Shown here piece after piece: positions 1-62,614 of a stretch of 64,000 bases of DNA. The translations under genes were made by a program, and so were the position numbers. The notes beneath the pieces were generated by a model that saw only the letters and a list, made by a program, of their open reading frames with translations, made no database searches and had not been told where the DNA came from. The DNA is from Eledone cirrhosa (Eukaryota): positions 90,148,001-90,212,000 of the forward strand of contig OZ024747.1 in assembly GCA_964016885.1 (NCBI GenBank), written 5' to 3'. Positions within the stretch are counted from its first letter, which is position 1. Each line of letters starts with the position of its first letter.

Positions 1-1488
1 AAACCTTGTAAAGTGGTGAGAGACTAGTGAAGAGTTTAGCGTAAAAGTTGGTGTTCATCAGGGCTCTGTTCTTAGCCCCCTACTATTTATTATTGCCCTA
101 CAGGTTATAACAGTGGAGTTCAAGACCGGCTGCCCATGGGAACTCCTATAAGCAGATGATCTAACGCTCATAGCTGAATCAATGGCCGAGCTAGAGAAGA
201 AATTCCAAACATGGAAGCACGGCCTAGAATCAAAAGGCCTTAAAATTAACCTGGCTAAGACTAAAGTTCTAGTTTGTAGGAAAGAAAATAAGGCGCCGGT
301 CCCTTCCGGGAAATGGCCATGTTCAGTGTGTAGGAAAGGCATAGGTAGAAACTCCATTTTATGTCCCAAATGCAAAGTATGGGTGCATAAAAGATGTAGT
401 GGGATCACAGGTAAGCTAACTAAGAACATAGATTTTACATGTGGCCGGTGCTCTGGTGCAATAAGTAGCAGCAAGTGCCCACAAAATACTAGCTCTTTCA
501 ATTGCGCAGAGGGTTCTATAGAAATAGTGGACAGCTTCCGTTACCTGGGTGACAAAATCAGCAGTGGGGGAGGGTGCTCTGAAAGTACAGTAGCTAGAGT
601 CAGAACTGGATGGAAAAAGTTCAGAGAGCTTATACCACTATTAGCCGCTAAAGGGTTCTCCCTAAAAATGAAAGGCAGGCTGTATGATGCCTGCATACGA
701 ACAGCAATGTTACATGGCAGTGAGACCTGGGCATTGTGTGCAGAGGATATACGCAGACTAGAGAGGAACGAAGCTTGCATGCTCCGCTGGATGTGTAATA
801 GTAATATACACGAACGGCAAAGCAGAAACGAACTAAGGGAAAAATTAGAAATAAGAGGGATCAGATGTTGTTTAGTCGAGAGAAGGCTACGTTGGTATGG
901 TCACGTGATGCGCATGAAAGACGACAGCTGTATAGAAAAGTGCAGGGCAATAAAGATAGACGGTAGCCACGGAGTAGGCAGACCCAGAAAAACGTGGGAC
1001 GACCTGATAAATTCCGACCTCACACACTTACACCTCTCCAAGACAATGTCACTGGACCGAGATCTTTGGCGGTACTCAGTAATAGAGAAGACCCGCCTTA
1101 CCTGAAATACAAAGTAAAACCTACTACAGTCAGTAGGCATCTCTAACAAAACACACCCCCGTCCCACCACCCCCACCCCATCCACACCGCCCCTTTCAAT
1201 GTAAAGTTATGTTGGTGCCACAACACCAGGCCGAAACAAATGAGATCGTGTAGGTGTCACGACAAAAAAACACATAGTCCACGCTGTAATGTGGTCGTGT
1301 AGGCAACACGGTAAAAACCTCCCAGCCCCACACTGTAAATGTGGTTGGTGTTAGGAAGGGCATCCAGCTATAGAAAACCCGCCAGACAGTACTATGCGAG
1401 CAAGACAACCACTCTTGCCTCAAGTGCGAAAACTCCCATCCAAACCCATGCAAGCGTGAACATGGACGTTAAACGATGATGATGATGA

Positions 1489-1569: not shown

Positions 1570-1903
1570 CATATGGCTTAGTGGTTAGAGCATTGGTCTT
1601 GCAATCGAAAGGTTCTGAGTTCAATTTTTAGACTGGCTGATGTGTTGTTTCCTTGAGCAAGACACTTTATTTCACATTGCTCCAGTTTACTCAGCTGTAG
1701 AAATGAGATGATAAGGACTTGGGCCCCTATCTTTCCACTGTAAATTGGTCGTGGAGGTGCCACGGCAAAAAAGCACCCAGCACTCACTGTAAATGAGGTT
1801 GGTGTTAGGAAGGGCATCCAGCTGTAGAAATCAAGCCAGAATCAGTTCCCGTCCCACCCTTGCAAGCAGGGAAAAGTGGGTGTAAAATGAAATGATGAAA
1901 TGA

Positions 1904-9543: not shown

Positions 9544-9576
<33 letters not shown>

Positions 9577-9608
9577 AAGATCAAAAGATGGTTAAAGGAG
9601 TTCAATAT

Positions 9609-9677
9609 ATTTTATTATGCGCATTTCAAAAACAAACATCATCAAACAATAATATTTGTGTTTTCATCAGATAAAAC
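9609..9677 (-). ncRNA. Type I hammerhead ribozyme (PLE-2 3' pLTR)
   Basis: Reverse complement of 12911-12979. Confidence 0.88.
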
Positions 9678-10896
9678 AGGAGAACATGATATGAAGGCTA
9701 AAAAAACACTTGTTGATAGTGCAGTTTTAAATCAACATATGAAAAGTGGTTTTAGATTGATGTGTGATATTGGGAAAAATATTTTATTTAGAGAGGGGGG
9801 GAGAGAAAAGGATGAAAAGGGAAGGAGATGAGAGGGAGAGATGGGTGATAGAGAGAAAGAGATAGTTTTTATAACAGAGAGGAGATATATTTTATATAGA
9901 GGGGTTGAAAACCGTTGGAAGATACTGTATAAATTAAAAATTTTGAAAATTAACGAAGGGAGGATATGTGCGAGGAAAAAATATATTATATTTAGGGAGG
10001 GGTGGGGGTGGAAAGGATGAAAAAAAGGGAGGAGATGAGAGTGAAGGTGGAAAGGGAGAGATGGGTGATAGAGAGAAAGAGATAGTTTTTATAACTGAGA
10101 AAAAGATATAATGTTTTAATATAGAGAGGTTGGGAACCGTTGGAAGATAATGTATAAATTAAAGGAATTTGAAAATTAACGAAGGGAAATTATGTATGGA
10201 GATAGAGAGAAAAAAATAACGAAGGGAGATTATGTATGGAGATAGAGAGAAAAAAATAATAATTGTGGGTGAATATTCAAAAGGAGAAATGTAGGAATCT
10301 TAAAATTAGCAAAGAGAAAAAGTTTATGTATAGGATTTGAGAAAAATTTATATTGAATTCATATGTATTAATAATGAGTTCGTTGATGGGGAGAAAAAAA
10401 TAATAATAATAAATTAAGGATGAAATTGAGATTAAAAAGATTTATGATAGAGAGAAAAAATAATAATGATTGCGGATGAATACTCAAAATGTCAAAAACA
10501 AATGTTATTGTTTTACGAAGAGATATAATGAGGGTGATGAGTAAACGGGTATTATAGAGTGTATAATGCCCTTTAAAGTAAGGTAGATGGGTATATTTTA
10601 AAGAATATATGAGTATATATTAAAAAAAATATATATAATAATAAATTAAGGATGAAATTGAGATTAAAAAGATTTATGATAGAGGGAAAAAAAAAAATAA
10701 TAATGATTGCGGATGAATATTCAAAATGTCAAAAACAAATGTTATTGTTTTACGAGAAGATAGGATGAGGTAAATGAATAAACGAGTACTATAGAGTGTA
10801 TAATGCCCTTTAAAGTAAGGTAGATGGGTATATTTTAAAGAGGTGTATGTATATGTGCCTTTGAGAAAAGATTCTAAATTGATAAAGAATTGAATA

Positions 10897-11895: not shown

Positions 11896-12910
11896 GTTTT
11901 TCCCTCTATCATAAATCTTTTTAATCTCAATTTCATCCTTAATTTATTATTATATATATTTTTTTTAATATATACTCATATATTCTTTAAAATATACCCA
12001 TCTACCTTACTTTAAAGGGCATTATACACTCTATAATACCCGTTTACTCATCACCCTCATTATATCTCTTCGTAAAACAATAACATTTGTTTTTGACATT
12101 TTGAGTATTCATCCGCAATCATTATTATTTTTTCTCTCTATCATAAATCTTTTTAATCTCAATTTCATCCTTAATTTATTATTATTATTTTTTTCTCCCC
12201 ATCAACGAACTCATTATTAATACATATGAATTCAATATAAATTTTTCTCAAATCCTATACATAAACTTTTTCTCTTTGCTAATTTTAAGATTCCTACATT
12301 TCTCCTTTTGAATATTCACCCACAATTATTATTTTTTTCTCTCTATCTCCATACATAATCTCCCTTCGTTATTTTTTTCTCTCTATCTCCATACATAATT
12401 TCCCTTCGTTAATTTTCAAATTCCTTTAATTTATACATTATCTTCCAACGGTTCCCAACCTCTCTATATTAAAACATTATATCTTTTTCTCAGTTATAAA
12501 AACTATCTCTTTCTCTCTATCACCCATCTCTCCCTTTCCACCTTCACTCTCATCTCCTCCCTTTTTTTCATCCTTTCCACCCCCACCCCTCCCTAAATAT
12601 AATATATTTTTTCCTCGCACATATCCTCCCTTCGTTAATTTTCAAAATTTTTAATTTATACAGTATCTTCCAACGGTTTTCAACCCCTCTATATAAAATA
12701 TATCTCCTCTCTGTTATAAAAACTATCTCTTTCTCTCTATCACCCATCTCTCCCTCTCATCTCCTTCCCTTTTCATCCTTTTCTCTCCCCCCCTCTCTAA
12801 ATAAAATATTTTTCCCAATATCACACATCAATCTAAAACCACTTTTCATATGTTGATTTAAAACTGCACTATCAACAAGTGTTTTTTTAGCCTTCATATC
12901 ATGTTCTCCT

Positions 12911-12979
12911 GTTTTATCTGATGAAAACACAAATATTATTGTTTGATGATGTTTGTTTTTGAAATGCGCATAATAAAAT
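12911..12979 (+). ncRNA. Type I hammerhead ribozyme with palindromic stem III (PLE-2 inverted pLTR)
   Basis: Stem I GUUUUAU/AUAAAAU, CUGAUGA (12918), long stem II, GAAA (12961), stem III AUGCGCAU, cleavage triplet AUA (after 12972). Confidence 0.88.
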
Positions 12980-13105
12980 ATATTGAACTCCTTTAACCAT
13001 CTTTTGATCTTATATTATGCATACTCCAGTCCCACAAACTGTAGAGTGCTTCTTATCCGATATCTGCATTGCTTTATTGTACTACAATAAAACTCACCTC
13101 CTACA

Positions 13106-14733: not shown

Positions 14734-14736
<3 letters not shown>

Positions 14737-17700
14737 GCTTGAACGTAAGGAGGTCGATGTTTGTTGTATTCAAGAGACCAGGTGGAGGGGAGGGTCGGCT
14801 AGATTCATCGTGGGTAAAGAACGATGCTATAAGCTTTTCTGGGTGGGAAATGACAATGGGTTGGGTGGGGTAGGAATCATGGTAGCAGAAAAGTGGGCAG
14901 ATAAGATAATAGACGTAAATAGAGTGAACGACAGAATAATTAAAATAAGACTTGTCCTCAATAAAACTACGGTGACAGTAATATCTGCGTACGCACCCCA
15001 ATCCGGACTGCCCCGCGCTATAAAAGACAGATTCTACGAGACACTGATGCTCGCTACCTCCCAAATAACCGACAGTGACTATATAGTTATTGCAGGCGAC
15101 CTAAATGGTCACGTTGGACAACATTGTGACGGCTATGACGGAATCCATGGAGGCTATGGGTTCGGTACTAGAAATGAGGAAGGCTCCAAAATCCTGGAAT
15201 TCTGCGACGCAAATAACTTAACTATCTGTAACACTAACTTCAAAAAACGAGACAATCACTTGATCACCTATAGATCGGGGGAACACACAAGCCAGGTAGA
15301 TTATATCCTTACCAGAAGACGTGACAGAGTGTCTGTTGTTAACACTAAATCCCACCCCCATGAAGAATTCACCTCCCAACATAGACTGATAATTAGCGAC
15401 CTCATAGTCAGGACGAGACGTACTAGACAGCGGAAGAGGACTATCCTCAGGAGAAAAATATGGAAGCTAAAGGACCCCATAGCCAGAAATATATTTCAAA
15501 GCATATTACTTGACGCTTTCGACAGTAAGGAAGAGCAATTAGAGTCGTATAATATAGAGGAACAGTGGGAATTCCTGAGAGCAAACCTGCTGACGGCGGC
15601 AGACGAAGTCTGTGGCTGGAGCAGGCCTGTAGGTAGGAGGAGAGTAACATGGTGGTGGAACAGTAAGTTGGAGGAGTCAATTAAGGCCAAAAAGCAGGCT
15701 TGGAAAGTATGGCGGGATGGGGGAAGTAGAGAAGACTATCAAGTGGCCAGGAGGGAAGCTAGGAGACAAGTGTACTTCGCAAGAAGGGAAGCAGAGGAAA
15801 GAAAGTTCAAGCATGTTCTACAACGTGAGGACCAAAAACGTGAGGTGTTCAGGATTGCCAGGCAATGTGTCAAGGAAAACCGTGATATTGTCGGGGAGAA
15901 GTGTGTACTTAACGATGATGGCATACTTGCCATCACCGACGCTGATAAGAAGGTAGCTTGGAAGTGTCACTACGAAAGGCTTCTAAATGAGGAGAACAAA
16001 TGGGAGAAAGACAGTCTCCCCCAGATCGATCCAATAGAGGGACCAGCAGTGTTAGTTGAAGGTAGTATAATAAGTAAGGCAATCAAAGATATGAAGACGG
16101 GTAAGGCGGCTGGGCCTTCGGAAATAGTTGCTGAGATGCTGAAGGCATCTGGTTCGGTGGGACACACCATGGTCACCCGGATAGTTAACCAAGTCGTACA
16201 GAATGGGGTTGTTCCGAAGGAATGGCGTAGCAGCATCATCGTTAACTGCTATAAGGGAAAAGGAGATGCCCTAGATAGGAGTAACTATAGAGGCATTAAA
16301 TTAATCGACCAGGTCATGAAGGTCACGGAAAAAGTAATAGCGCAACTAATCAGAGAGAGAATTGATCTAGATGAAATGCAGTTCGGGTTTGTGTCAGGCA
16401 AAAGTACCACAGACGCTCTTTTCATTGTACGACAACTACAGGAGAAGTACCTAGCTAAAAGTAAACCCCTATACTTAGCTTTCGTCGACTTGGAGAAAGC
16501 CTTCGACAGAGTCCCCCGTTCCATTATCTGGTGGTCTCTTAGAAAACTAGGTGTTGACGAATGGCTTGTGAGAGCTATACAAGCCATGTATAAAGAAACA
16601 GTCAGTAAGGTTAGAATTAACAACGAATATAGTGAAGAGTTTAGCGTAAAAGTTGGTGTCCATCAGGGCTCTGTTCTTAGCCCCCTACTATTTATTATTG
16701 CCCTTCAGGCTATAACAGAGGAGTTCAAGACCGGCTGCCCATGGGAACTCCTATACGCAGATGATCTAACGCTCATAGCTGAATCAATGACCGAACTAGA
16801 GAAGAAATTCCAAACATGGAAGCACGGCCTAGAATCAAAAGGCCTTAAAATTAACCTGGCTAAGACTAAAGTTCTAGTTTGTAGGAAAGAAAATAAGGCG
16901 CCGGTCCCTTCCGGGAAATGGCCATGTTCAGTGTGTAGGAAAGGCATAGGTAGAAACTCCATTTTATGTCCCAAATGCAAAGTATGGGTGCATAAAAGAT
17001 GTAGTGGGATCACAGGTAAGCTAACTAAGAATATAGATTTTACATGTGGCCGGTGCTCTGGTGCAATAAGTAGCAGCAACTGCCCACAAAATACTAGCTC
17101 CTTCAACTGCGCAGAGGGTTCTATAGAAATAGTGGACAGCTTCCGTTATCTGGGTGACAAAATCAGCAGTGGGGGAGGGTGCTCTGAAAGTACAGTAGCT
17201 AGAGTCAGAACTGGATGGAAAAAGTTCAGAGAGCTTATACCACTATTAGCCGCTAGAGGGTTCTCCCTAAAAATGAAAGGCAGGTTATACGATGCCTGCA
17301 TACGAACAGCAATGCTGCATGGCAGTGAGACCTGGGCATTGTGTGCAGAGGATATACGCAGACTAGAGAGGAACGAAGCTTGCATGCTCCGCTGGATGTG
17401 CAATAGTAATATACGTGAACGGCAAAGCATAAACGAACTAAGGAAAAAATTAGAAATAAGAGGGATCAGATGTTGTTTACTCGAGAGAAGGCTACGTTGG
17501 TACGGTCACGTGATGCGCATGAAAGACGACAGCTGTATAACAAAGTGCAGGGCAATAAAGATAGACGGTAGCCACGGAGTAGGCAGACCCAGAAAAACAT
17601 GGGACGAGCTGATAAATTCCGACCTCACACGCTTACACCTCTCCAAGACAATGTCACTGGACCGATACCTTTGGCGGTACTCAGTAATAGAGAAGACCCG

Positions 17701-18200
17701 CCTTACCTAAATACAAAGTAAAAACCTACTACAGTCAGTAGGCATCTCTATCAAAACACACCCCCGTCCCACCACCTCCACACCGCCCTTTTCAATGTAA
17801 AGTTATGTTGGTCCCACAACATCCAGGCCGAAACAAATGAGATCGTGTAGGTGTCACGACAAAAAACACACAGTCCACGCTGTAAATGTGGCCGTGTAGG
17901 CAACACGGTAAAAACCTCCCAGCCCCACACTGTAAATGTGGTTGGTGTTAGGAAGGGCATCCAGCTGTAGAAAACCCGCCAGACAGTCCACGCTGTAATG
18001 TGGCCGTGTAGGCAACACGGTAAAAACCTCCCAGCCCCACACTGTAAATGTGGTTGGTGTTAGGAAGGGCATCCAACTGTAGAAAACCCGCCAGACAGTC
18101 CTATGCGAGCAAGACAACCACTCTTGCCTCAAGTGGGAAAACCCCCGTCCAAACCCATGCAAGCGTGGAACACGGACGCTAAACCTGATGATGATGATGA
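14733..18200 (+). mobile_element. RTE-clade LINE family A, near full length (slightly 5'-truncated)
   Basis: Single APE+RT ORF, ~490-bp 3' UTR, (GAT)n tail, inserted in (TA)n. Confidence 0.97.
14735..17710 (+). CDS. RTE ORF: apurinic endonuclease + reverse transcriptase with internal PHD-type finger (991 aa, uninterrupted)
   Basis: APE motifs CCIQET, SAYAPQ, AGDLNGH, QVDYIL, SQHRL. RT motifs [35 protein letters not shown]. The first APE strand appears to be missing. Confidence 0.95.
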
Positions 18201-23277: not shown

Positions 23278-24565
23278 CCACCAGGGCTCTGTTCTTAGCC
23301 CTCTCCTGTTCATCATAGTCCTGCAGGCAACAATGGAGGAGTTTAAGACCGGATGCCCATGGGAACTCCTGTATGCTGATGACCTCGCACTTATAGCTGA
23401 ATCTATGGTAGAACTAGAGAAGAAATTCCAAACTTGGAAGCAGGGACTAGAAAGAAAGGGTCTCAAAGTCAACATGACAAAGACTAAGGTCCTTGTAAGT
23501 AGACGAGAAAACAGAACCCAGATCCCCTCAGGGAAATGGCCTTGCTCAGTATGTAGGTAGGAACTCCATTCTCTGCCCCAAATGCAAACAATGGGTACAC
23601 AAGAGATGTTGCAGGATCTCAGGAAGCTTAATTAAGAATGTAGGCTTCACATGCAGCAGCTGTGCTGGGACAGCAAGCATCAAACAGCCACAGGAAACAA
23701 GTACCACCAATCTCTGGGAGGGCTCTGTAGAAAGAGTAGACAGCTTATGCTACCTAGGTGACCGAATTAGCAGCGGAGGTGGGTGTTCAGAAAGTACAAT
23801 AACTAGGGTAAGAACGGGATGGAAGAAGTTCAGGGAACTACTACCACTGCTAGCTGCAAAAGGCTTCTCCCTCAAAATGAAAGGCAGACTGTATGATGCG
23901 TGTAATCGAACAGCAATGTTACATGGTAGTGAGACCTGGGCGCTGAAGGTGGAAGACTTACGTAGATTAGAAAGAAATGAAGCCTGCATGCTCCGATGGA
24001 CGTGTAATAGTAATATACGCGAACGACAAAGCATAAATGAATTGAGAGAGAGACTGAGCATAAGAGGAATCAAATGCTGTGTGCAGGAGAGGTGGTTGCG
24101 TTGGTATGGACATGTGATGCGTATGAAGGATGACAGCTGCATAAAAAGGTGCAGAGCACTAGAAGTCGATGGAAACCGCGGAGTGGGGAGACCCACGAAG
24201 ACCTGGGATGAGGTGATAAAAGCCGACCTTACCCAATTACACCTCCCAAAGGCGATGACACATGACTGTGAACTCTGGCATCATGCAGTAATACAGAGTA
24301 CCCGACCTCCCATGGGTACAAGCTGAAGTATAGAGACAATATGCACCCACACCCTCCCACTGCAAGGTGGTCGTGGAGGTGCCACGCAAAAAAGCACCCA
24401 GCCCACACTGTAAAGTGGACGTGTAGGCGCCACGGAAAAAGCACCCACCACTCACTGTAAATGAGGTTGGTGTTAGGAAGGGCATCCAGCTGTAGAAATC
24501 AAGCCAGAATCAGTTCCCGCCCCACCCTTGCAAGCAGGGAAAAAGAAGACATAAAATTTTGATGA
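23276..24565 (+). mobile_element. RTE family B, 5'-truncated, frameshifted, short-type 3' end
   Basis: ORFs 23333..23560 and 23877..24326 match 37645..39717; small deletion at ~23557; (TA)n on both sides. Confidence 0.95.
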
Positions 24566-24572
24566 TATATAC

Positions 24573-24755
<183 letters not shown>

Positions 24756-31056: not shown

Positions 31057-31649
31057 GCACACACACACACACACACATATATATATTATAGTGAGATAGA
31101 GGGAGGAAAACCATAATGTGTATCAATAGTATTATGTATGTTTATATAAATAAGCATGTTTTATTAACGTAATCACATTAATAAGACAATACATACGAGA
31201 ATGTGTACTGTTAAATGTTTAACGTTTCATTGCACAGAGAATGTTTATTGAAGAGTAGAAGAGAAATACATATATATATCCTTAAAATCCAATGCCCGAC
31301 TTTGCTATCGATCATTTCCAAACATGTTGTATAGAAAATATCTAAATACAGATTCATATTTGATGAATTTCCTTGATAAAGCAAATGAAATATTATCCTT
31401 CAGTTAGCAACTAGTGCTAAAAACATTGAATCTCCTGCAGCCAATATTCTGTTTTCAGAGAAATAAGAGTAAGTGCAGTTAACTTATATGCTTGCTTTTC
31501 CTCATTAGAAAAAAAAAATTGTAGTATTATATGGTTAAACATGCTTAAACACACACAAACTTAACCCATTCATGTATGTATGTATTTATACACATATCTT
31601 ATGTGTGTGTGTATATACATATATATATATATAGATATAGATATCTCCA

Positions 31650-31928
31650 CAACCCTCCCAATGTAAAGTGGTTGTGTTGGTGTCACAACAAAAAGCACCC
31701 AGTCCACACTGTAAAGTGGCCGTGTAGGCACCACGGTAAAAAAGCACCCAGTACTCACTGTAAATGAGGTTGGTGTTAGGAAGGACATCCAGCTGTAGAA
31801 ATCAACCCCCAAATCAATTCTGTATGAGCAAGACATGGTCTCCTGACCTGGCCATTGCTCACAACAGGACAACCCGTCTAACCCATGCTAGTGTGGAAGA
31901 ATGGACATAAAATGGTGATGATGATGAT
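31650..31928 (+). mobile_element. RTE family B-type 3' UTR fragment (long-type end)
   Basis: Matches the reverse complement of 37342-37620; (GAT)n tail. Confidence 0.85.
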
Positions 31929-37341: not shown

Positions 37342-39952
37342 TCATCATCATCATCATCATCACCGTTTTACGTCCGTTCTTCCACGCTAGCATGGGTTAG
37401 ACGGGTTGTCCTGTTGTGGGCAGTGTCTGGTCGGCTGACCATGCCTTGCTCATACAGGAACTGATCTGGCTTGATTTCTACAGCTGGATGCCCTTCCTAA
37501 CACCAACCTCATTTACAGTGAGTGCTGGGTGCTTTTTCGTGGCGCCTACACGTCTACTTTACAGTGTGGGCTGGGTGCTTTTTTGCCGTGGCACCTCCAC
37601 GGCCACCTTGCGGTGGGGGGGGGGGGGCATATTGTTTATATGCTTCAGCATGTACCCATGGGAGGTCGGGTACCCTGTATTACTGCGTGACGCCAGAAGT
37701 CACGGTCGTGTGTCATTGACTTTGAGAGGTGTAGTTGGGTAAGGTCGGCTTTTATCACCTCATCCCAAGTCATCTTGGGTCTCCCCACTCCGCGGTTTCC
37801 ATCAACTTCTAGTGCTCTGCACCTTTTTATGCAGCTGTCATCCTTCATACGCATCACATGTCCATACCAGCGTAACCGCCTCTCCTGCACGCAGCATTTG
37901 ATTCCTCTTATGCTCAGTCTCTCTCTCAATTCCTTTATGCTTTGTCGTTCACGTATATTACTGTTACACATCCATCGGAGCATGCAGGCTTCGTTTCTCT
38001 CTAATCTACGTAAGTCTTCCACCTTCAGCGCCCAGGTCTCACTACCATGCAACATCGCTGTTCGGATACACGCATCATACAGTCTGCCTTTCATTCTGAG
38101 GGAGAAGCCTTTTGCAGCTAGCAGTGGTAGTAGTTCCCTAAACTTCTTCCATCCCGTTCTTACCCTAGTTATTGTACTTTCTGAGCACCCACCTCCGTTG
38201 CTAATTCGGTCACCTAGGTAGCAGAAGCTGTCTACTGTTTCTACAGGGCCCTCCCAGAGATTGGTGGTACTTGTTTCCTGTGGCTGTTTGCTTGCTGTTT
38301 CAGCACAGCTGCTGCATGTGAATCCTACATTCTTAATTAAGCTTCCTGAGATCCCGCTACATCTCTTGTGTACCCATTGTTTGCATTTGGGGCAGAGAAT
38401 GGAGTTCCTACCTACACCTTTCCTACATACTGAGCAAGGCCATTTCCCTGAGGGGATCTGGGTTCTGTTTTCTCGTCTACTTACAAGGACCTTAGTTTTT
38501 GTCATGTTGACTTTGAGGCCCTTTCTCTCTAGTCCCTGCTTCCAGGTTTGGAATTTATTCTCTAGTTCTACCATAGATTCAGCTATGAGTGCGAGGTCAT
38601 CAGCATACAGGAGTTCCCATGGGCATCCGGTCTTAAACTCCTCCGTTATTGCCTGCAGGACTATGATGAACAGGAGAGGGCTAAGAACAGAGCCCTGGTG
38701 GACCCCAACCTGTACGCTAAATTCCTCGCTATACTCATTGCCAATCCTAACTTTGCTGACTGCTCCCCTATACATGGCTTGTACCGCTTTCACAAGCCAT
38801 TCATCTACTCCTAGTTTTCTAAGAGCCCACCAGATTACTGCACGTGGAACTCTGTCAAAGGCTTTCTCAAGGTCGACAAATGCCAAGTAGAGTGGCTTAC
38901 TTTTAGCTAGGTACTTTTCCTGTAATTGCCTCACAAGGAAGAGGGCATCAGTGGTGCCTTTCCCTGGTACAAACCCAAATTGTATCTCGTCTATATTCAC
39001 CCGGTCCCTAATCAGCTGTGCTATAACTCTTTCTGTTACTTTCATGACCTGGTCCATCAACTTTATACCTCTATAGTTTCCTCTATCTAGTGCATCGCCT
39101 TTACCTTTGTAGCAGTTGACAATGATGCTACTGCACCAATCTTTTGGTATGGCCCCCTCTAGTATTACCTGGTTAACGATACGTGTGGTTATAGTGTGAC
39201 CTACAGACCCAGATGCCTTCAGCATCTCGGCAGCTATACCCGATGGACCGGTTGCCTTCCCTATCTTCATATCTCTGATTGCCTTACTTACTACGCTGCC
39301 GCTGACTTGTACTGCTGGTCCCTCTATAGGGTCTACGTGGGGTAGGGTCTCTTCTTCCCATGCATTCTCCTCATTTAGTAATCTATCATAATGACTCTTC
39401 CATGCATCTTTCTTCTCAGCACTTGTGAGGGCAAGCTCACCTTTATCATTCCGGATACACTTCTCTCCAATGACATCACAACTATCTCTGACACACTGCC
39501 TCGCAATCTTGAATACCTCCTGTTTCTGGTCCTCACGTTGTAAAACATGCTTGAATTTTCTATCCTCTGCTTCCCTCCTAGCTAAGTATACTTGTCGCCT
39601 AGCTTCCCTCTTGGTCTCTATGTAATGTACCCTGCTCCCCCCGTTCTTCCATTCTTTCCATGCCTGTCTCTTGGCCTTGACTGCTTCATCTACCTTATTG
39701 TTCCACCACCAAGTCACTCTCCTCCTGCTTGAGGTCTTACTCCAGCCACAAACCTCATCCGTCGCCTCTAGTAAGTTATTTTTTAGGAACTCCCAGTTCT
39801 CTTCTACGTTAAATGTCTCTATCTGTTCTTCTTTACTGTCGTAGGCGTTGAGTAAAATATCTTTAAATCTGTTACTGGTTGAGGGGACTTTCAGCTTCCA
39901 GATCTTTCTTCTCCAGGTTGGCCTCTGTTTCAGGGCTCGTCTAGTTCTGACC
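37342..39952 (-). mobile_element. RTE family B, 5'-truncated (RT ORF 37645..39717, 690 aa), long-type 3' end
   Basis: All RT motifs including YADD and the PHD-type insert; APE absent; (GAT)n tail. Confidence 0.97.
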
Positions 39953-39983
39953 GATAAATTTTCTAGGGTTGTGTGTGCAATCT

Positions 39984-45881: not shown

Positions 45882-46150
45882 GTCATCATCATCACCGTTT
45901 TATGTCCGTTCTTCCATGCTAGCATGGGTTAGACGGGTTGTCCTGTTGTGAGCAGCGTCCAGTCGGCTGACCTTTTCTTGCTCATACAGGAACTGATTTT
46001 GGCTTGATTTCTACGTCATTTACAGTGAGTGGTGGGTGCTTTTTTTCCGTGGCGCCTACACGTCCACTTTACAGTGTAGGCGGGGTGCTTTTTTGCTGTG
46101 GCACCTCCACGACCACTTTGCAGTGGGGGGGGGGGGCATATTGTCTACAT
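45882..46150 (-). mobile_element. RTE family B 3' UTR fragment (long-type end)
   Basis: Matches 37342-37640. Confidence 0.88.
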
Positions 46151-61293: not shown

Positions 61294-62614
61294 CATCATC
61301 ATCATCATCATCAGGTTTAGCGTCCGTGTTCCACGCTTGCATGGGTTTGGACGGGGGTTTTCCCACTTGAGGCAAGAGTGGTTGTCTTGCTCGCATAGGA
61401 CTGTCTGGCGGGTTTTCTACAGTTGGATGCCCTTCCTAACACCAACCACGTTTACAGTGTGGGGTTGGGAGGTTTTTACCGTGTTGTCTACACGGCCACA
61501 TTACAGCGTGGACTGTCTGGCGGGTTTTCTACAGCTGGATGCCCTTCCTAACACCAACCACATTTACAGTGTGGGGCTGGGAGGTTTTTACCGTGTTGCC
61601 TACACGGCCACATTTACAGCGTGGACTGTGTGTTTTTTGTCGTGACACCTACACGATCTCATTTGTTTCGGCCTGGATGTTGTGGGACCAACATAACTTT
61701 ACATTGAAAAGGGCGGTGTGGGTGGGGTGGAGGTGGTGGGACGGGGGTGTGTTTTGATAGAGATGCCTACTGACTGTAGTAGGTTTTTACTTTGTATTTA
61801 GGTAAGGCGGGTCTTCTCTATTACTGAGTACCGCCAAAGGTCTCGGTCCAGTGACATTGTCTTGGAGAGGTGTAAGCGTGTGAGGTCGGAATTTATCAGC
61901 TCGTCCCATGTTTTTCTGGGTCTGCCTACTCCGTGGCTACCGTCTATCTTTATTGCCCTGCACTTTGTTATACAGCTGTCGTCTTTCATGCGCATCACGT
62001 GACCGTACCAACGTAGCCTTCTCTCGAGTAAACAACATCTGATCCCTCTTATTTCTAATTTTTTCCTTAGTTCGTTTATGCTTTGCCGTTCACGTATATT
62101 ACTATTGCACATCCAGCGGAGCATGCAAGCTTCGTTCCTCTCTAGTCTGCGTATATCCTCTGCACACAATGCCCAGGTCTCACTGCCATGCAGCATTGCT
62201 GTTCGTATGCAGGCATCGTATAACCTGCCTTTCATTTTTAGGGAGAACCCTCTAGCGGCTAATAGTGGTATAAGCTCTCTGAACTTTTTCCATCCAGTTC
62301 TGACTCTAGCTACTGTACTTTCAGAGCACCCTCCCCCACTGCTGATTTTGTCACCCAGATAACGGAAGCTGTCCACTATTTCTATAGAACCCTCTGCGCA
62401 GTTGAAGGAGCTAGTATTTTGTGGGCACTTGCTGCTACTTATTGCACCAGAGCACCGGCCACATGTAAAATCTATGTTCTTAGTTAGCTTACCTGTGATC
62501 CCACTACATCTTTTATGCACCCATACTTTGCATTTGGGACATAAAATGGAGTTTCTACCTACGCCTTTCCTACACACTGAGCATGGCCATTTCCCCGATG
62601 GGACCGCCGCCTTA
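61294..62614 (-). mobile_element. RTE family A, 5'-truncated
   Basis: Near-identical to ~16894-18200, including the 3' UTR duplication. Confidence 0.96.

What the first reader, a model, noticed from the sequence alone, without database searches (positions are those of the whole stretch)
24357..24492. RTE 3' UTRs are built from tandem [hairpin + compact H-type pseudoknot] modules with covariation
Seen: the 3' UTRs of both RTE families and the SINE tail repeat one module 2-4 times. It begins with a 4-bp hairpin with a CUGUAAA-type loop (CCAC/GUGG, or CUCA/UGAG in the last module). This is followed by S1-L1(2 nt)-S2-S1'-A-rich loop-S2', e.g. CGUG-GA-GGUGC-CACG-CAAAAAA-GCACC (24372-24398). Pairing is kept while the sequence changes. 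S1 is UCGUG/CACGA (~1246), GUUGUG/CACAAC (31671) or CCGUG/CACGG (~31720); S2 is GGUGC/GCACC, GUGU/ACAC or GGUGU/GCACC, and is weaker in some modules. Known: the geometry resembles compact viral frameshift-type pseudoknots, and LINE RTs usually recognise a single 3' stem-loop. Inference: a repeated structured RNA cassette for RT recognition, RNA protection or catalysis. I do not know of a description of it.
Basis: partly seen in the sequence, partly recalled or inferred. Interest (0 to 1): 0.75.

Follow-up and report, generated by a model that had tools for sequence, protein, structure and literature searches.

The report
Portable pseudoknot cassette of RTE retrotransposons
A short repeated unit, predicted to fold into small RNA knots, sits behind the gene in two jumping-gene families, just in front of the start codon in related families, and inside a non-coding hitch-hiker element, so it is likely a movable RNA handle that these elements need once per RNA, not the end-signal for copying; its function is untested.

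Summary
The sequence is as described, with corrections. The hairpin and first pseudoknot-compatible module are at 24357-24398. The second module has a family-fixed C·A mismatch in S2. The third hairpin leads into a different, more widely conserved unit (T unit, 24465-24505). The '31671' covariation is CpG decay of one copy.

The 48-nt module plus T unit is a cassette. It lies just before the start codon in RTE families D and E and in a distant metagenome RTE, in the 3' UTR of families A and B, and in the body of a SINE. Family D has no module at its 3' end, so the modules are not the required 3' signal; a separate terminal stem-loop lies downstream.

Across 16 module types the covariation score of S1 beats 500 of 500 shuffles; S2 alone does not (41 of 500 reach it), and S2 is broken in some young families. 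The unit also expands into arrays of up to 46 copies.

Best reading: a structured, position-independent RNA handle (0.4); rival: translation element (0.25). No Rfam match; no description found in my searches. The scan noted this cassette before in other windows of this genome.

The parts
23499..24326 (+). 3' end of the single ORF of a 5'-truncated family-B RTE-type LINE
   Evidence: ORF; 94% like 37617-38290, whose protein has RT and PHD domains
24357..24370 (+). Hairpin 1, CCAC/GUGG, 6-nt loop (predicted)
   Evidence: formed in MFE and centroid
24372..24398 (+). Module 1: predicted H-type pseudoknot, S1 4 bp in this copy (6 bp in the family), L1 2 nt, S2 5 bp, A-rich L3
   Evidence: descriptor hit; crude energy -6.8 against -6.9 kcal/mol nested
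24403..24418 (+). Hairpin 2, CCAC/GUGG, 8-nt loop (predicted)
   Evidence: pair counts
24420..24445 (+). Module 2: degenerate pseudoknot with family-fixed C·A in S2 and A·G in S1
   Evidence: runs of other organisms mostly show the pairing letters at 24419 and 24428 (table 3)
24451..24465 (+). Hairpin 3, CUCA/UGAG; one pair reads A-U in family A, U-A in B and the SINE, C-G in two distant loci
   Evidence: pair 38:50
24465..24505 (+). T unit: conserved domain, predicted second pseudoknot type (S1 24465-70 with 24486-91; S2 24481-83 with 24503-05); stands 6-14 nt before the ORF start codon in families D, E and locus L191
24516..24552 (+). Terminal stem-loop of the SINE/family-D type, damaged in this copy; other family-B copies carry a longer B-type end, so this copy is a chimera
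24561..24750 (+). Short (ATG)n tail followed by (TA)n and (GA)n microsatellite
1206..1480 (+). Family-A 3' UTR: truncated first module (1206-1229), module with 4-bp S2 (1245-1278), last module with broken S2 (1294-1326), T unit, terminal stem-loop
1567..1900 (+). tRNA-headed SINE with one module, T unit and family-D-type 3' end
   Evidence: tRNA hit 1567-1639
31647..31925 (+). Older B-lineage 3' UTR copy with two modules; CpG decay in module 1, two mismatches in S2 of module 2
37400..37644 (-). Family-B 3' UTR copy with two modules and the B-type end
17710..18192 (+). Family-A 3' UTR behind the 991-aa ORF (14735-17710), with the last module plus T unit duplicated; an inverted sister copy lies at 61307-61798

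Best explanation
The module, hairpin and T unit form a leader-derived cassette, predicted to fold into hairpins and compact pseudoknots, that likely works as a position-independent RNA handle through which the element's protein picks up the RNA, while a separate terminal stem-loop likely primes reverse transcription. Shown: the cassette stands just before the start codon in families D and E and in distant locus L191; behind the stop codon in A and B; in the middle of the SINE; D has none at its 3' end; A has none in its shared 5' region. Inferred: A and B captured a leader fragment at the 3' end (B still carries an ATG and leader-like codons after the T unit) and gained a new leader; the 48-nt unit then duplicated by slippage; extra modules are redundant, so single modules can lose S2. 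Inferred: S1, the hairpin and the T unit are the firm parts and S2 is marginal. Untested: folding, protein binding, and need in retrotransposition.
For: Position: 8 of 127 metagenome T units have the endonuclease N-terminus downstream on the same strand and 0 have an ORF end upstream; D's ATG is 6 nt after the T unit and in frame with the endonuclease, L191's is 14 nt after. Complementary placement: D copy in L103 runs from ORF straight into the terminal stem-loop; of 20 family-A 5' regions only 2 hold a T core, both outside the shared element. Constraint: A versus B four-fold sites are 40% identical (212 sites), T unit 89%, modules 74-82%, terminal stem-loop 75%. Pairing: 16 module types, 87.6% of cells paired, covariation 0.233 against 0.137±0.016, 0 of 500 shuffles; S1 alone 0.299 against 0.174, 0 of 500. 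L161 differs from D at 5 of the first 19 positions and 4 of these make two exact S1 swaps. A non-coding SINE keeps the cassette. Precedent: R2 protein binds a 3' UTR pseudoknot and compensatory mutants restore activity (PMC11601368, passages); R2 protein also binds a 5' pseudoknot (PMC6765202, passages).
Against: S2 alone is not above shuffles, and pairs with a double change are 5 against 3.3 (98 of 500). Rows are related, and L191 and L161 were picked with a pairing descriptor, so the shuffle counts are inflated; with own-genome rows only, S1 reaches 12 of 500. S2 is broken in the last module of A and B. Crude pseudoknot energies are within about 3 kcal/mol of nested folds in A, B and the SINE, and a bulged hairpin wins in D and E (-8.0 against -4.3). 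The spacer after the T unit is also 61% identical between A and B, so recent exchange may explain part of the conservation. Most distant T units have no module upstream: 3 of 38 family representatives fit a pseudoknot descriptor against 1.7 shuffled. B's 5' end was not found. No binding data.
Confidence: 0.4

Rival explanations
1. The cassette is a translation element: IRES-like in the leader, where the T unit would place the start codon, and a 3' translation enhancer or ribosome dock after relocation.
For: T unit ends 6-14 nt before the in-frame ATG in D and L191. Its S1 3' strand pairs in 105-111 of 114 distant stretches, and the S2 partner triplet occurs in 62 of 114 against 14.8 shuffled. 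HDV-like leaders of non-LTR elements are proposed IRESs (PMC6765202, passages). The TMV 3' pseudoknot domain stimulates translation in place of poly(A) (PMC5382211, passage).
Against: A tRNA-headed SINE, presumably untranslated, keeps it; in A and B it lies behind the stop codon. The distance to the ATG varies (6, 14, about 20 nt). The search pattern fixed the 5' strands, so no double change could be seen in the T unit (0 pairs), and two families give 38 of the 62 triplet hits.
Confidence: 0.25
2. In the 3' UTRs the cassette is a passenger: a captured leader fragment whose 48-nt unit duplicates like a minisatellite, with pairing inherited and now decaying.
For: 356 module hits in 1.17 Mb form 118 clusters of 1 to 46 copies. 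D is mobile without 3' modules. S2 is broken or deleted in A and B majority types. One quoted covariation is CpG decay.
Against: Double changes arose among 3'-located and SINE modules (S2 U-A to A-U in the older A lineage; hairpin A-U versus U-A; S1 U-A, U·G, C-G). Identity between A and B is far above four-fold sites.
Confidence: 0.22
3. The unit acts as DNA: internal promoter or factor-binding monomers, as Kojima speculated for conserved RTE leaders.
For: Family D repeats an 87-nt leader unit two to three times. PMC5786205 Discussion raises regulator binding.
Against: Compensatory swaps and G·U-tolerant changes on the sense strand fit RNA pairing; relocation behind the ORF.
Confidence: 0.07
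4. The module is a ribozyme or an exonuclease-blocking RNA.
For: RTE and other LINE leaders carry HDV-like ribozymes (PMC5786205; PMC6765202); compact pseudoknots occur in such RNAs (recalled).
Against: No Rfam match at gathering or E up to 5-10. Self-cleavage in a 3' UTR or SINE body would cut off the template. Loop and junction letters vary freely.
Confidence: 0.06

Closest known systems
Bipartite RTE-derived SINEs and the conserved RTE 5' UTR domain (Kojima 2018, PMC5786205; parts 1-4 of 5 read, supplement searched twice)
   Same: RTE leader fragments kept in SINE bodies next to an RTE 3' end, with tail exchange; the D and E leaders and L161 have the cassette directly after a stretch resembling Kojima's domain (likeness by eye).
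   Different: The T-unit core word had 0 hits in his supplement (line breaks could hide it). He proposes no RNA structure in the parts read. Here the leader piece also sits in the 3' UTR of autonomous LINEs and is tandemly repeated.
Vertebrate R2 3' UTR pseudoknot-hinge-stem (PMC11601368, passages)
   Same: A UTR pseudoknot upstream of a terminal stem in a non-LTR element, bound by the element's protein.
   Different: R2 has one required pseudoknot next to the 3' stem and an RLE protein; here the units are repeated, can be absent from the 3' end, and belong to an APE-type element.
TMV upstream pseudoknot domain (PMC5382211, passage; PMC4683447, search listing)
   Same: Pseudoknots in a 3' UTR of an RNA without poly(A), upstream of a terminal structure.
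   Different: Viral, translation role shown; no hairpin spacers known to me (recalled); no sequence likeness tested.
Polerovirus frameshift pseudoknots such as BWYV (PMC5382211, passage)
   Same: Compact H-type geometry with short L1 and A-rich L3 (dimensions recalled).
   Different: Outside coding sequence, no overlapping frame or slippery site to act on.
HDV-like ribozymes in RTE, R2 and L1Tc leaders (PMC6765202, passages)
   Same: Pseudoknotted RNA in a non-LTR leader, proposed to aid translation.
   Different: No nested double pseudoknot or Rfam match; also found in 3' UTR and SINE body.

Membership tests
RTE-clade LINE (host element) | Single ORF with APE endonuclease followed by RT | tested here: met
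   P0001: Exo_endo_phos 2-201, RVT_1 515-715, plus PHD 731-774
RTE-clade LINE (host element) | Microsatellite 3' tail | tested here: met
   (ATG)n tails
RTE-clade LINE (host element) | RT groups with RTE in a phylogeny | not tested
Bipartite RTE-derived SINE | SINE body shared with an RTE 5' UTR and 3' end shared with an RTE 3' end | tested here: met
   Cassette in D/E leaders; SINE end matches the family-D end
Kojima conserved RTE 5' UTR domain | Sequence match to the published domain | tested here: inconclusive
   Neighbouring upstream stretch resembles it by eye; T-unit word absent from the supplement text; no alignment made
H-type pseudoknot | Two interleaved stems with feasible loop lengths | tested here: met
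   S1 4-6 bp, L1 1-2, S2 4-5 bp, L2 0, L3 6-9 in intact types
H-type pseudoknot | Covariation support for both stems | tested here: inconclusive
   S1 0 of 500 with distant rows; S2 41 of 500
H-type pseudoknot | Both stems formed in probing or a structure | not testable with these tools
   Needs DMS/SHAPE or NMR
LINE 3' RT-recognition stem-loop | Present at the 3' end of every mobile family and its SINE | tested here: not met
   Family D lacks modules at its 3' end; the downstream terminal stem-loop meets this feature instead
Known self-cleaving ribozyme or Rfam RNA | Covariance-model match | tested here: not met
Frameshift pseudoknot | Located in coding sequence behind a slippery site | tested here: not met
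   First module starts 46 nt after the stop at 24326
IRES or 3' translation enhancer | Drives cap-independent translation or binds ribosome or factors | not testable with these tools
   Only position before the ATG is shown

The most novel reading that the evidence does not exclude
RTE elements carry a portable pseudoknot cassette that docks on the ribosome and catches the newly made RTE protein from either end of the RNA. It would start translation in leaders, work from the 3' UTR after relocation, and let non-coding SINEs hijack the protein by RNA structure alone. That would explain why RTE is the main clade that spawns bipartite SINEs.
Probability: 0.2. Interest if true: 0.8.

Novelty: new variant of a known kind. 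Interest (0 to 1): 0.5.

Why it matters
Why RTE leaders are conserved and kept in SINE bodies is an open question (PMC5786205). A small cassette that nature has moved between leader, 3' UTR and SINE body gives a direct test of protein binding against translation. RTE UTRs are used as gene-writing templates (PMC13708176, passages), so a defined structural signal could matter there. At about 100 T units per Mb (118 in 1.17 Mb; very roughly 300,000 per genome from a non-random sample) it is also a large part of this genome and a seed of tandem arrays.

Tried and rejected
Rfam: only the SINE tRNA head and microsatellite noise. Nested folding z-score uninformative. Viral contigs: 0 pattern hits, no protein relatives; prokaryote genomes: no protein relatives. 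A sequence-only HMM of the module gave no hit below E=0.01 in 120 metagenome loci; L161 and L191 appeared only at E 5.7 and 9.1. Alignment A1 and its counts were dropped because one row was out of register and gave a false double change; one search had a misplaced bracket and is not used. The junction base has a partner in S1 or S2 in 13 of 14 rows, but permutation gives 10.9, p=0.10, so it is not counted as evidence. A general pseudoknot or hairpin upstream of distant T units is not enriched (3 against 1.7; 14 against 8.0, max 14, which included 9 loci). The bulged-hairpin rival scores 79.7% paired, 8 of 500, but its distinguishing pair is open in 10 of 16 rows; it stays possible for D, E and older families. 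Family B's 5' end was not recovered. No RNA holder was listed; laid runs were contigs and show presence in other organisms only. Ruminski 2011 and Berry 2010 were not held and are known only through the review. Literature searches for a description found none; subscription papers, Repbase and SINEbase were not searchable, so absence from print is not proven. Representatives for the alignments are near-majority single copies, some with private decay; exact-majority copies were not located.

Full report
Setting. The window lies in a 3.0-Gb animal genome, probably an octopod (recalled from repeat types and earlier notes; not tested). It holds two related single-ORF LINE families, A (ORF 14735-17710) and B (37645-39981, minus), with endonuclease, RT and a PHD finger, and a tRNA-headed SINE. 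The label RTE is taken over and was not tested by a tree.

Observation. The letters quoted for 24372-24398 are exact. The unit is 48-50 nt and recurs in all copies. A sequence-free pseudoknot descriptor finds it far above shuffles. Four corrections apply. The counts are 1 complete module in the SINE, 2 in B, and 2 plus a truncated one in A. The third hairpin leads into a different unit, here called T, which ends at 24505. Module 2 has family-fixed mismatches. The 31671 example is CpG decay: over 234 copies the two transitions are independent (p=0.13).

Family-level pairing. Copies decay without selection, so I compared one near-majority copy per family and position. With 14 own-genome types, 87.7% of cells pair and the covariation score is 0.179 against 0.129±0.015 (1 of 500), but pairs with a double change are 4 against 2.7 (136 of 500). 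The double changes are a hairpin A-U/U-A swap, an S2 U-A/A-U swap in the older A lineage, an S2 C-G/U·G/U-A series and an S1 U-A/U·G/C-G series. S2 alone is not above shuffles. The last module of A keeps 2 of 5 S2 pairs and that of B has a C·A. In runs of other organisms the common letters at 24419 and 24428 restore pairing in module 2, so the B mismatches look derived.

Distant homologues. A pattern scan of metagenome contigs gave 120 loci with the T unit. Two lineages, L191 (an RTE-like ORF 45% identical to A) and the L161 group, carry a module at the same distance from T, with S1 read as GAGA/UCUC. Adding them lifts S1 to 0.299 against 0.174 (0 of 500) and the whole structure to 0.233 against 0.137, while S2 stays at 41 of 500. 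These rows were chosen with a pairing descriptor and share ancestry, so the counts are not probabilities. Most other distant T units have no module. Crude energies put the pseudoknot within about 3 kcal/mol of the best nested fold in A, B and the SINE, and behind a bulged hairpin in D and E. S1 and the hairpin are therefore well supported and the pseudoknot is likely but marginal.

The T unit. It is the more widely conserved piece. In 114 distinct distant stretches the four free letters of its S1 3' strand pair in 105-111, and the S2 partner triplet follows the A-rich loop in 62 against 14.8 shuffled. The search fixed the 5' strands, so no double change could appear. No Rfam family matches module or T unit.

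Where the cassette sits. This was the lead taken from earlier scan notes and tested here. In families D (copies 96-98% alike) and E, module, hairpin and T unit stand directly before the ORF; D's ATG is 6 nt behind T and in frame with the endonuclease. In L191 the gap is 14 nt. Among 127 metagenome T units, 8 precede an endonuclease and none follows an ORF end. The D copy in L103 has no module at its 3' end: the ORF runs into a terminal stem-loop that is also the SINE's end. Family A has the cassette at the 3' end and none in its shared 5' region (18 of 20 regions lack a T core; the other 2 hits lie in neighbouring elements). B's leader was not recovered. The flagged copy is a B body with the SINE/D end, unlike other B copies.

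Constraint and expansion. Between A and B, four-fold sites are 40% identical, the T unit 89%, the modules 74-82%, the terminal stem-loop 75% and the spacer between them 61% (one copy each, gapped alignment). This fits selection, though exchange between families could contribute. The unit also behaves as a minisatellite seed: 118 clusters in 1.17 Mb, 68 single, 33 double, the longest 46.

Mechanism. Each mobile RNA examined carries the cassette once, at either end or in the middle, plus a terminal stem-loop. That pattern, and retention in a non-coding SINE, fit a position-independent handle for the element's protein best (0.4), with R2 pseudoknots as precedent (PMC11601368 and PMC6765202, passages). 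The fixed place before the ATG favours a translation role (0.25; PMC5382211, passage), and the two may combine as ribosome docking. A decaying passenger remains possible for the 3' copies (0.22). All function is inferred.

Novelty. RTE leader pieces in SINE bodies are known (PMC5786205, parts 1-4 of 5 and two supplement searches). Passages of three octopus or mollusc repeat papers and the MetaSINE paper and a Bov-B paper (0 hits) showed no such structure. A zebrafish DANA sequence printed in a preprint contains the T-unit core. Eight searches found no description; closed journals and repeat databases were not searchable. I rate it a new variant of a known kind, interest 0.5. The scan had flagged the same cassette in several other windows of this genome, which is not independent support.

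Noticed in passing
window 14735-17710 and 37645-39981: Both ORFs carry a PHD finger just after the RT domain (Pfam PF00628, E about 3-5e-6), unusual for a LINE ORF2 to my recall; it could be the RNA or chromatin reader.
   Followed up: no
window 24500-24555: The flagged copy joins a family-B body to the SINE/family-D end at a short shared word, suggesting a template switch.
   Followed up: partly
window 17885-18192 and 61307-61620; L074:8487-8823 (minus-strand offsets): Family A copies duplicate a 112-nt block (last module plus T unit) up to four times.
   Followed up: partly
L108:7812-10000, L053:327-1291, L097:1419-2453: Arrays of 20-46 copies of the 48-nt module; those in L108 and L097 still end in a T unit and element tail.
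   Followed up: partly
L103 minus strand, about 230-190 nt before the family-D T unit: A further pseudoknot-compatible stretch (4-bp S1, 4-5-bp S2, A-rich loop) at the place of the Kojima-like domain; seen by eye, untested.
   Followed up: no
L111-L130, up to 1.5 kb upstream of the family-A ORF: Family A has a long tandem-repeated, pyrimidine-rich leader unrelated to the cassette.
   Followed up: partly
window 1705-1722 (SINE body): The SINE body holds a CUCA/UGAG hairpin with the same loop type as the cassette hairpins, resembling the end of CORE domains (MIR text in the Kojima supplement).
   Followed up: no
L480-L488: Prokaryote genome bins contain the T unit inside animal-like repeats; L480 has it before an RTE-like endonuclease, so these contigs are probably eukaryotic contamination.
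   Followed up: partly
window 46014-46146 (minus): A family-B 3' UTR copy with both modules but the T unit deleted.
   Followed up: no
window 9565-10691 and 11897-13023: A perfect 1127-nt inverted repeat with 1205 nt between arms; could be a real palindrome or an assembly artefact.
   Followed up: no
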